Source: Escherichia coli (GTDB lineage Bacteria; Pseudomonadota; Gammaproteobacteria; Enterobacterales; Enterobacteriaceae). Taken from it: a DNA stretch of 377 bases. The DNA lies in the NCBI RefSeq assembly GCF_003334385.1, contig NZ_QOWN01000187.1. One strand, 5' to 3'. Made by a program: the position numbers and the translations under genes. Below, piece after piece: positions 1 through 377 of this stretch (the first letter of the stretch is position 1; each line of letters opens with the position of its first letter). The notes under the pieces were generated by a model. The model ran no database searches. It was not told the origin of the DNA and saw nothing but the letters and a program-made list of their open reading frames with translations.

Positions 1-377
1 CACGATACCATTGCCAGAGTTGTATCCTGTATCAGTCCTGCAAAATTTCACGAGTGCTTTATTAACTGGATGCGTGATTGTCATTCTTCAGATGATAAAG
101 ACGTCATTGCAATTGATGGAAAAACGCTCCGGCATTCTTATGACAAGAGTCGCCGCAAGGGAGCGATTCATGTCATTAGTGCGTTCTCAACAATGCACAG
201 CCTGGTCATCGGACAGATCAGGACGGATGAGAAACCTAATGAGATCACAGCTATCCCTGAACTTCTTAACATGTTGGATATTAAAGGGAAAATCATCACG
301 ACTGATGCGATGGGTTGCCAGAAAGATATTGCAGAGAAGATACAAAAACAGGGAGGTGATTATTTATTCGCTGTAAA
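1..377 (+). CDS. ISAs1-family DDE transposase (H-repeat-associated protein), internal fragment; 5' and 3' ends lie outside the window
   Basis: Frame +1 (codons at 1-3, 4-6, ...) is open across all 125 complete codons. The translation contains blocks I recognise from E. coli H-repeat/ISAs1 transposases (yhhI/ydcC/ybfD group): [85 protein letters not shown]. The composition is that of a real protein, unlike the R/S/L-rich frame +2 translation. Recognition is from memory, not a database search. No gene symbol is given because several near-identical paralogs exist and 125 residues cannot distinguish them. Confidence 0.88.
1..377 (+). mobile_element. Interior of an ISAs1-family insertion sequence (H-repeat element); terminal inverted repeats and target-site duplications are not in the window
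   Basis: The window is wholly occupied by the transposase ORF. ISAs1-family elements are known to be single-ORF IS elements of roughly 1.2-1.5 kb, so the ends should lie several hundred bp beyond each side. Hand-counted GC is 160/377 (about 42%). Confidence 0.8.

What the first reader, a model, noticed from the sequence alone, without database searches (positions are those of the whole stretch)
2..376. Alternate frame +2 is stop-free for about 370 nt inside the transposase gene
Frame +2 is open from nt 2 to the TAA at 374-376, 124 sense codons in an AT-leaning sequence. For random sequence of this composition that would be uncommon (rough estimate: well under 1%), though off-frame stop frequency in real genes depends strongly on codon usage. 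The peptide's R/S/L bias argues it is not a real product. I flag it only because long embedded overlapping frames are occasionally functional in mobile elements.
Basis: seen in the sequence. Interest (0 to 1): 0.12.

Follow-up and report, generated by a model that had tools for sequence, protein, structure and literature searches.

The report
Chance open frame inside transposase gene
The long stop-free second reading frame is really there, but it is an unselected by-product of codon choice in one young E. coli lineage of a well-known insertion-sequence transposase gene, so it is ordinary.

Summary
The window is codons 71-195 of the 378-aa transposase of ISEc1, the 1,291-bp "H-repeat" of E. coli Rhs elements (ISAs1 family). 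Frame +2 is open exactly as described. In the full gene it runs 136 codons, with a possible 134-aa ATG-started ORF. Nulls that keep the transposase protein put a run this long at 0.14-0.4% per gene, which is unusual but expected somewhere in a genome-wide scan.

- **Close copies are interrupted.** E. coli and E. albertii copies at 94-95% amino-acid (~96% nucleotide) identity carry 1-2 internal +2 stops. One stop allele is in 412 of 5,426 complete E. coli genomes. Every homolog at 87% identity or less has 2-21 stops.
- **Synonymous variation is not suppressed.** dS is 0.115-0.172 in the overlap and 0.062-0.146 elsewhere.

Within the clade, pN/pS is 0.17 for frame 1 and 4.55 for frame +2. Stop-creating substitutions occur at the neutral rate, 3 observed against 2.85 expected. 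The +2 peptide matches no protein family. Its database "homologs" are E. coli/Shigella frameshifted transposase fragments.

Verdict: a fortuitous shadow ORF that persists by recent common descent, not a gene. Interest is low.

The parts
1..377 (+). Internal segment of the ISEc1 (H-repeat, ISAs1-family) transposase CDS in frame +1: codons 71-195 plus 2 nt of codon 196. It covers the end of the DDE_Tnp_1_assoc domain and the first half of the DDE_Tnp_1 domain.
   Evidence: NCBIfam NF033564 180.1 bits, cutoff 70. Pfam PF01609 and PF13808. Annotated 'ISAs1-like element ISEc1 family transposase' in E. coli genomes, with 22,111 matching places in 5,311 of 5,426 genomes.
2..373 (+). Stop-free stretch of frame +2, 124 sense codons inside the window. 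This is the 3' 124 codons of a 136-codon stop-to-stop run. It is a fortuitous shadow ORF, not a gene.
   Evidence: Translation. Extent in the full gene. Not conserved. pN/pS 4.55. Stops arise at the neutral rate. No family match.
374..376 (+). TAA that ends frame +2, formed across frame-1 codons V195 (GTA) and K196 (AAA).
160..172 (+). GGAG (160-163) lying 6 nt upstream of an in-frame +2 ATG (170-172). This is the only start codon of the first 13 in the +2 ORF with a Shine-Dalgarno-like 4-mer at canonical spacing, and it would give a 68-aa product. The GGAG is part of frame-1 codons K123-G124-A125.
   Evidence: There is no evidence of use. L091-type copies have a +2 stop downstream of it, at codon 162.
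120..124 (+). A5 run (GGAAAAACG, frame-1 codons G110-K111-T112). This is the commonest junction at which frameshifted database proteins switch from frame 1 into frame +2.
   Evidence: Among the best 120 of the 143 hits that were mapped, 17 clusters have their frame-1 to frame-2 junction at codon 111.
235..235 (+). C where the closest E. coli copy has T. This changes Ser149 to Pro in frame 1 (synonymous in frame +2) at a residue invariant across 18 homologs down to 66% identity.
   Evidence: the single difference from L001; S149 invariant; a 33-mer carrying this allele has no match in 5,426 complete E. coli genomes.

Best explanation
The window is an ordinary internal piece of the single-ORF transposase gene of ISEc1, the 1,291-bp 'H-repeat' found in E. 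coli Rhs elements (ISAs1 family). The long open +2 frame is a passive by-product and is neither selected nor used.

A +2 stop can form only where a frame-1 codon ending in TA or TG (Leu, Ile, Val or Met) is followed by a codon starting with A or G. This stretch has 21 such contexts. They are mostly Ile and Val, and in this lineage they are written ATT/ATC/GTC/GTT rather than ATA/GTA/GTG, so only the last context (GTA|AAA) makes a stop.

All copies with the open frame belong to one young clade, about 96% or more identical in DNA, so they share it by descent. It persists because only 2 of 133 possible frame-1-synonymous transitions would create a +2 stop. Most routes need a transversion to ATA or GTA.

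Shown here: lack of conservation, normal synonymous variation, pN/pS above 1 in frame +2, and stops arising at the neutral rate. Inferred: that the original loss of stops in the clade's ancestor was chance rather than selection.
For: **Conservation of the open frame**
- Among 97 mapped homologous copies, frame +2 is open only in E. coli ISEc1-clade copies. L091 (E. coli, 95% aa) has stops at codons 93 and 162. L003 (E. albertii, 94%) has one at 125.
- All homologs at 87% identity or less (Entomohabitans, Salmonella, Citrobacter, E. fergusonii, Serratia, Dickeya, Raoultella, Vibrio, Halomonas and others) have 2-21 internal stops, with medians of 6-10.
- Five intact, annotated E. coli transposase copies about 96-97% identical in DNA carry a +2 TGA, created by TGG to TTG. 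The exact 33-mer with that allele occurs in 412 of 5,426 complete E. coli genomes.

**Substitution pattern**
- Within the clade, dS is 0.115-0.172 in the overlap and 0.062-0.146 in the rest of the gene. Beyond the clade, both parts are saturated.
- Of 57 variable sites in 17 clade copies, 32 lie at frame-1 third positions, which are +2 second positions.
- pN/pS is 0.17 for frame 1, 4.55 for frame 2 and 0.73 for frame 3.
- Three stop-creating variants were observed against 2.85 expected if frame +2 is unconstrained.

**Mechanics of the run**
- There are 21 at-risk contexts with 1 stop in the region, against 36 with 17 stops elsewhere. Ile ATA use is 1/17 in the region and 5/20 elsewhere.
- Only 2/133 synonymous transitions can create a stop.

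**The peptide**
- The +2 peptide has no Pfam, NCBIfam, PHROG, PADLOC or PDB match.
- All 143 database hits are from E. coli/Shigella. The 120 mapped are mostly 194-aa chimeras of frame 1 then frame 2 from frameshifted copies, plus fragments called on short contigs.
- It is basic (pI 11.5) and R/S/L-rich at 36.6%.
Against: - The run is nominally improbable under nulls that preserve the transposase protein (P about 0.001-0.004). It is also longer than any +2 run in 63 diverged homologs, whose maximum is 110.
- The contrast of at-risk sites inside and outside the region gives Fisher P = 0.0009, but the region was defined post hoc by the absence of stops.
- One internal +2 ATG has an SD-like GGAG at good spacing.
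- Only 17 clade copies, out of about 22,000 places in E. coli genomes, were examined base by base. Events were counted as variable sites against a consensus, not on a tree, and gene conversion among copies was ignored.
- Translation itself could not be tested.
Confidence: 0.92

Rival explanations
1. A young, lineage-specific overprinted gene. The ISEc1 clade recently acquired a translated same-strand overlapping ORF. It would be 134 aa from the ATG 28 nt upstream of the window, or 68 aa from the SD-preceded ATG at window 170. It would be too young to show conservation.
For: The run is unusual under codon-aware nulls. It is present in most sampled clade copies, including K-12 yhhI, ydcC, ybfD and ybfL. 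There is an SD-like GGAG 6 nt before the ATG at window 170. Out-of-frame internal initiation exists in E. coli in general (abstract of 10.1101/520783).
Against: pN/pS in frame +2 is 4.55. Stop-creating variants are not depleted, 3 observed against 2.85 expected. A stop allele sits in intact transposase copies in 412 genomes. None of the first 12 start codons of the +2 ORF has an SD-like motif. No protein-family or structure match was found. Neither yhhI, ydcC nor ybfD is mentioned in the two E. coli alternative-ORF papers checked.
Confidence: 0.03
2. A frameshift outlet. The open +2 frame would let a +1 ribosomal or transcriptional frameshift, or a 1-nt deletion mutant, yield a uniform 194-aa protein. 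That protein would be the N-terminal DNA-binding domain plus a basic +2 tail, acting as a truncated transposition regulator like InsA/OrfA of IS1/IS3.
For: Databases contain many 194-aa chimeras carrying PF13808 (the N-terminal domain) fused to the +2 tail. Junctions lie anywhere from codon 59 to 149, with a hot spot at the A5 run of codon 111. The open frame begins near the middle of the N-terminal domain.
Against: Those chimeras come from genomic frameshifts in pseudogenised copies or assembly errors, not from recoding. Their junctions are scattered. The catalytic DDE domain is contiguous with the N-terminus in frame 1. IS1/IS3-type elements shift by -1, which here leads into frame +3, not +2 (sequence). 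A truncated regulator needs no long tail. The +2 frame is closed in all other family members.
Confidence: 0.02
3. Nucleotide-level selection unrelated to a second protein. Avoidance of rare ATA/GTA/CTA codons in the catalytic-core part of the gene, or an mRNA-level constraint, would remove +2 stops as a side effect.
For: ATA is 1/17 Ile codons in the region against 5/20 elsewhere. At at-risk sites, Ile and Val use only T- or C-ending codons.
Against: Synonymous sites in the region vary at least as much as elsewhere. Homologs at 81-87% identity freely use TA/TG-ending codons at the same sites, giving stops at 77, 128, 129, 135, 143, 158, 168 and 169. There is no Rfam match. The region/rest contrast is post hoc.
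Confidence: 0.04

Closest known systems
ISEc1 / 'H-repeat' (H-rpt) of E. coli Rhs elements, ISAs1 family (genes yhhI, ydcC, ybfD, ybfL in K-12)
   Same: The window is 96-99.7% identical to these genes. The element has the same 378-aa single ORF and the same 1,291-bp unit. The closest copy (L001) also lies inside an Rhs element.
   Different: Nothing of substance. The window's copy has one private change, S149P, at an invariant serine.
Shadow ORFs: long stop-free alternative frames inside real genes, a known by-product of codon and amino-acid usage (own knowledge)
   Same: It lies on the same strand and out of frame. It shows no conservation, and its variation pattern is dictated by the host frame. 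Other family members show similar runs in frame +3, 144 codons in L016 and 125 in L009, both GC-rich.
   Different: It is longer than usual for a 41.5% G+C gene, at P about 0.1-0.4%.
Two-frame transposase genes with programmed -1 frameshifting (IS1 insA/insB', IS3-family orfA/orfB) (own knowledge)
   Same: A second same-strand frame overlaps a transposase gene in a mobile element.
   Different: In those elements the second frame encodes the catalytic domain. It is reached by a -1 shift at a conserved slippery motif and is conserved across the family. Here the DDE domain is in frame 1, frame +2 corresponds to a +1 shift, and it is closed in all relatives outside one E. coli clade.
Out-of-frame internal translation starts mapped in E. 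coli by retapamulin ribosome profiling (10.1101/520783)
   Same: It is an ORF nested inside an annotated E. coli gene in another frame.
   Different: Those are defined by experimental initiation peaks. None is reported for yhhI, ydcC or ybfD in the main text, and the supplementary tables were not available.

Membership tests
ISAs1-family insertion sequence (ISEc1 / H-repeat) | Transposase matches the curated ISAs1 family model above its cutoff | tested here: met
   NF033564 transpos_ISAs1 (equivalog) scores 180.1 bits against a cutoff of 70 on the 125-aa window fragment alone, aligned to profile positions 43-167 of 314.
ISAs1-family insertion sequence (ISEc1 / H-repeat) | Domain architecture of DDE_Tnp_1_assoc (N-terminal) followed by the DDE_Tnp_1 catalytic domain | tested here: met
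   PF13808 covers residues 1-24 of the fragment and PF01609 covers residues 32-125. Full-length homologs carry both domains.
ISAs1-family insertion sequence (ISEc1 / H-repeat) | Single uninterrupted transposase ORF with no frameshift | tested here: met
   A 378-aa ORF at L001 2791-3927 with frame 1 stop-free.
ISAs1-family insertion sequence (ISEc1 / H-repeat) | Discrete element of about 1.2-1.5 kb bounded by short terminal inverted repeats | tested here: met
   Copies in five to six different chromosomal contexts share L001 2647-3937, which is 1,291 bp. The ends read CAGGGAAAGA and, reverse-complemented, CAGGGCAAGA, 9 of 10 matching (sequence). The automatic repeat finder did not report this short imperfect pair.
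ISAs1-family insertion sequence (ISEc1 / H-repeat) | Invariant acidic residues of the DDE catalytic triad | tested here: inconclusive
   D109 and D172 (window codons) and E319/D320 are invariant in 18 homologs down to 66% identity. Which of them are catalytic was not established here.
ISAs1-family insertion sequence (ISEc1 / H-repeat) | Target-site duplications and demonstrated transposition | not tested
Functional same-strand overlapping (overprinted) gene | Overlapping frame stays open in diverged homologs | tested here: not met
   Open only in the E. coli ISEc1 clade. There are 1-2 stops in copies at 94-95% aa identity and 2-21 stops in all homologs at 87% or less.
Functional same-strand overlapping (overprinted) gene | Suppressed synonymous variation of the host frame across the overlap | tested here: not met
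   dS is 0.115-0.172 in the region and 0.062-0.146 in the rest within the clade. Both are saturated at greater depth.
Functional same-strand overlapping (overprinted) gene | Purifying selection on the overlapping frame's protein | tested here: not met
   pN/pS is 4.55 in frame +2 and 0.17 in frame +1. 32 of 57 variable sites hit +2 second codon positions.
Functional same-strand overlapping (overprinted) gene | Depletion of nonsense variants in the overlapping frame | tested here: not met
   3 observed against 2.85 expected. One stop allele is in 412 of 5,426 genomes.
Functional same-strand overlapping (overprinted) gene | Start codon with a ribosome-binding site | tested here: inconclusive
   None of the first 12 candidate starts has an SD-like 4-mer. 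The ATG at window 170 has GGAG 6 nt upstream.
Functional same-strand overlapping (overprinted) gene | Direct evidence of translation | not testable with these tools
   No expression data are available. Literature checks found no mention.
Programmed-frameshift transposase (IS1 / IS3 type) | Second frame entered by a -1 shift and encoding the catalytic domain | tested here: not met
   Frame +2 is a +1 shift from frame 1. The DDE domain is encoded in frame 1, contiguous with the N-terminus.

The most novel reading that the evidence does not exclude
The ISEc1 clade of E. coli has very recently overprinted a small basic protein on its transposase gene. This would be 68 aa from the SD-preceded ATG at window 170, or 134 aa from the upstream ATG. 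Alternatively, the clade exploits the open frame to make a 194-aa truncated N-terminal-domain regulator after +1 slippage. Either would be too young for comparative signals to have accumulated.
Probability: 0.03. Interest if true: 0.35.

Novelty: not a real feature. Interest (0 to 1): 0.05.

Why it matters
It matters little. The result removes a candidate overlapping gene and shows that the window holds only a well-known transposase gene.

Two practical points follow:
- A stop-free alternative frame that looks improbable (P about 0.001-0.004 even under protein-preserving nulls) can be pure descent plus codon choice. Openness within a clade of near-identical IS copies carries almost no information.
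- Because frame +2 stays open to codon 195, any 1-nt deletion between codons 59 and 194 produces a uniform 194-aa chimera. Annotation pipelines record these as 'H repeat-associated protein' or 'DDE_Tnp_1-associated family protein', which pollutes protein databases.

Tried and rejected
- **Synonymous constraint at depth.** Beyond the E. coli clade, dS is saturated (above 1.5 or undefined) both inside and outside the overlap. It cannot be measured there, so I used stop counts instead.
- **Family and structure searches with the +2 peptide.** NCBIfam, PHROGs, PADLOC, Pfam and PDB sequences all returned nothing.
- **Large protein-database search with the +2 peptide.** It returned only ISEc1-derived frameshift chimeras and fragments.
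- **Literature.** No paper links yhhI, ydcC or ybfD to overlapping or out-of-frame translation. The retapamulin Ribo-seq preprint and the PIRT-Seq paper do not mention these genes. The supplements of the former are not held, and those of the latter have no hit.
- **RNA families.** Rfam on the window at E <= 1 gave no match.
- **Promoter and terminator scan.** Three promoter-like sites were found against 4.0 expected from shuffles, which is uninformative.
- **Automatic inverted-repeat search.** It did not find the IS ends. I defined them by comparing copies in different contexts.
- **Minus strand.** The longest ORF overlapping the window is 68 aa in the full-gene context (L001) and 52 aa within the window itself, so there is nothing of note.
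- **Structure prediction of the +2 peptide.** I considered it and did not run it. A single-sequence model of an unconserved peptide would not be informative.

Full report
**1. The observation**

The window's frame +1 translates without stops into [10 protein letters not shown]...GGDYLFAV. Frame +2 is open from nt 2 to TAA at 374-376, 124 sense codons. Frame +3 is full of stops. No minus-strand ORF in the window exceeds 52 aa. The coordinates and the description in the finding are correct.

**2. What the sequence is**

- The frame-1 fragment matches the curated ISAs1-family transposase model NF033564 at 180 bits against a cutoff of 70.
- Pfam finds DDE_Tnp_1_assoc followed by DDE_Tnp_1.
- Megablast finds the window in 5,311 of 5,426 complete E. 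coli genomes, at 22,111 places with a median of 4 per genome. These are annotated 'ISAs1-like element ISEc1 family transposase', under the gene names yhhI, ydcC and ybfD.
- The best match is 99.7%, in strain 300709. There the gene sits inside an Rhs element, between an RHS core fragment and 'RHS element protein dsORF-h1'.
- The window is codons 71-195 of a 378-aa ORF.
- Copies in different chromosomal contexts share exactly L001 2647-3937, which is 1,291 bp. The ends are CAGGGAAAGA and, reverse-complemented, CAGGGCAAGA (sequence).
- This is the classical H-repeat of Rhs elements. That name comes from my own knowledge and from the annotations 'H repeat-associated putative transposase'.

**3. 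Full extent and statistics of the +2 run**

In the full gene the run goes from the TGA at CDS nt 173 to the TAA at nt 584, 136 codons. The first ATG gives a 134-aa ORF. The rest of frame +2 has 16 further stops, 18 in all counting the two that bound the run.

| Null model | Probability |
|---|---|
| i.i.d. sequence, 124 codons open | 2.9e-4 |
| Synonymous-codon permutation, run >= 136 anywhere in the gene | 0.0014 |
| Resampling from the gene's own codon usage | 0.0016 |
| Shuffling codon order | 0.0035 |

The run is nominally unusual. At this level, though, a scan over thousands of genes and several frames should meet dozens of such cases (inference).

Mechanically, a +2 stop needs a frame-1 codon ending in TA or TG followed by a codon starting with A or G. 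The region has 21 such contexts, 14 of them Ile and 5 Val, and only the last is realised as a stop. The rest of the gene has 36 contexts and 17 stops, and many of those contexts are Leu or Met.

**4. Comparative test 1: is the frame open in relatives?**

I collected 97 copies. They came from one scan of species-representative genomes, contigs encoding ten chosen homologs at 67-95% identity, and E. coli copies. More E. coli copies were added later. For each copy I mapped the stretch homologous to codons 59-195 and read it in frame +2.

| Amino-acid identity to the query | Internal +2 stops |
|---|---|
| ISEc1-clade copies at 97% or more, plus one at 91% (which differs downstream) | 0 |
| L091 (E. 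coli, 95%) | 2, at codons 93 and 162 |
| L003 (E. albertii, 94%) | 1, at codon 125 |
| 80-90% | 6 |
| 70-80% | 10-14 |
| 55-70% | 5-9 |
| 40-55% | 2-21 |

Five intact, annotated E. coli transposase genes that are about 96-97% identical in DNA over the region carry a +2 TGA. The exact 33-mer with that allele (frame-1 W93L, TGG to TTG) is present in 412 of 5,426 complete E. coli genomes, under genes annotated as ISAs1 family transposases. Among 63 distinct homologs below 90% identity, the longest +2 run has median 51 and maximum 110.

**5. Comparative test 2: substitution pattern**

- Within the clade, Nei-Gojobori dS against L001 is 0.115-0.172 inside the overlap and 0.062-0.146 outside. dN is about 0.003-0.02 in both. 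Synonymous variation is therefore not suppressed.
- Of 57 variable sites among 17 clade copies, 32 are frame-1 third positions. These are second positions of +2 codons, so each change there alters the +2 peptide.
- Pooled pN/pS is 0.17 for frame 1, 4.55 for frame 2 and 0.73 for frame 3.
- I classed the observed variants as synonymous or non-synonymous and as transition or transversion, then applied the fraction of possible changes in each class that would create a +2 stop. That predicts 2.85 stop-creating variants, and 3 are seen.
- Only 2 of 133 possible frame-1-synonymous transitions create a +2 stop. The other 22 routes are transversions, mostly to ATA or GTA. This explains why the frame has lasted across a clade with pS of about 0.1.

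**6. The +2 peptide**

It has pI 11.5, is 36.6% R+S+L and 3.7% D+E. It has no match in NCBIfam, PHROGs, PADLOC, Pfam or PDB sequences.

A search of 5.8 billion proteins gives 143 hits, all from E. coli or Shigella. I mapped the best 120 to both frames. Most are chimeras that start in transposase frame 1 and switch to frame +2. They are typically exactly 194 aa, because any 1-nt deletion between codons 59 and 194 then reads through to the TAA at codon 195. Junctions are scattered from codon 59 to 149, with a hot spot at codon 111, an A5 run. The remainder are fragments called on short contigs. No independent protein family exists.

**7. Start signals and expression**

None of the first 12 ATG/GTG/TTG codons of the ORF has an SD-like 4-mer upstream. 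The ATG at window 170 has GGAG 6 nt upstream and would give 68 aa. L091-type copies have a stop inside that stretch. The promoter-like site count is below the shuffle expectation, and there is no Rfam match. I found no literature linking these genes to out-of-frame translation. Translation itself cannot be tested here.

**8. Conclusion**

The best explanation is a fortuitous shadow ORF inside a known ISAs1-family transposase gene. It is shared by descent in a young clade and decays at the neutral rate.

Residual alternatives together deserve a few percent:
- a very young overprinted gene;
- a +1 frameshift outlet that produces a truncated regulator;
- codon-level selection with stop loss as a side effect.

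**Caveats**

- Only 17 clade copies were examined base by base.
- Variants were counted against a consensus rather than on a tree.
- Gene conversion among copies was ignored.

Noticed in passing
window 235: The window differs from its closest E. coli match by one base (C for T). This changes Ser149, invariant in 18 homologs down to 66% identity, to Pro. A 33-mer with this allele has no match in 5,426 complete E. coli genomes. The source copy is therefore either from outside that set, inactivated, or carries an error.
   Followed up: partly
window 120-124 (A5 run, codon 111); proteins P0122-P0231: Protein databases hold many 194-aa 'H repeat-associated' or 'DDE_Tnp_1-associated' proteins that are frame-1 to frame-2 chimeras from frameshifted ISEc1 copies. 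The uniform length follows from the open +2 frame. Junctions cluster at the A5 run (17 clusters) and near codons 121-123 and 142-144.
   Followed up: yes
window 160-172: GGAG lies 6 nt upstream of an in-frame +2 ATG, which could start a 68-aa ORF. In most other clade copies the motif reads GGGGAG. There is no evidence of use.
   Followed up: partly
L001 2958-2965 (36-43 nt upstream of the window): A T6 run (GAT TTT TTG AAG) sits exactly where the +2 open stretch begins. Its TGA is the upstream +2 stop. T TTT TTG has the form of a -1 slippery heptamer, but a -1 shift would enter frame +3, which stops within a few codons. Conservation in homologs was not checked.
   Followed up: no
L095 and L096 691-1827; L093 1-588 and 692-1827; L099 10587-12953: Several E. 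coli loci carry two ISAs1 copies in tandem (yncI pseudogene plus ydcC). In L095 and L096 the transposase frame has an internal stop and is annotated as a pseudogene, yet frame +2 is still open. Openness therefore tracks descent, not function.
   Followed up: partly
L016 and L009 (Franzmannia, Zobellella homologs): GC-rich family members have long stop-free runs in frame +3 (144 and 125 codons) but not in frame +2. Long alternative-frame runs arise independently in this family with base composition.
   Followed up: partly
L001 1-6377; L084, L086; L087, L088: Genomic neighbourhoods vary. The closest copy lies inside an Rhs element, flanked by an RHS core fragment and dsORF-h1. The Citrobacter and Salmonella homologs also sit next to SUKH/RHS genes. 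The Serratia and Dickeya homologs sit beside sugar-nucleotide and glycosyltransferase genes.
   Followed up: no
proteins P0007, P0094, P0145, P0182, P0192: Some Shigella sonnei records name ISAs1 transposase fragments 'receptor', which looks like an annotation error that has propagated in NCBI nr.
   Followed up: no
L007 1501-3110: The Cedecea locus matched over 1,610 nt, longer than one gene. It includes a second weak segment (33% identity, 6 frame-1 stops) at 2707-3111, possibly a degenerate adjacent copy.
   Followed up: no
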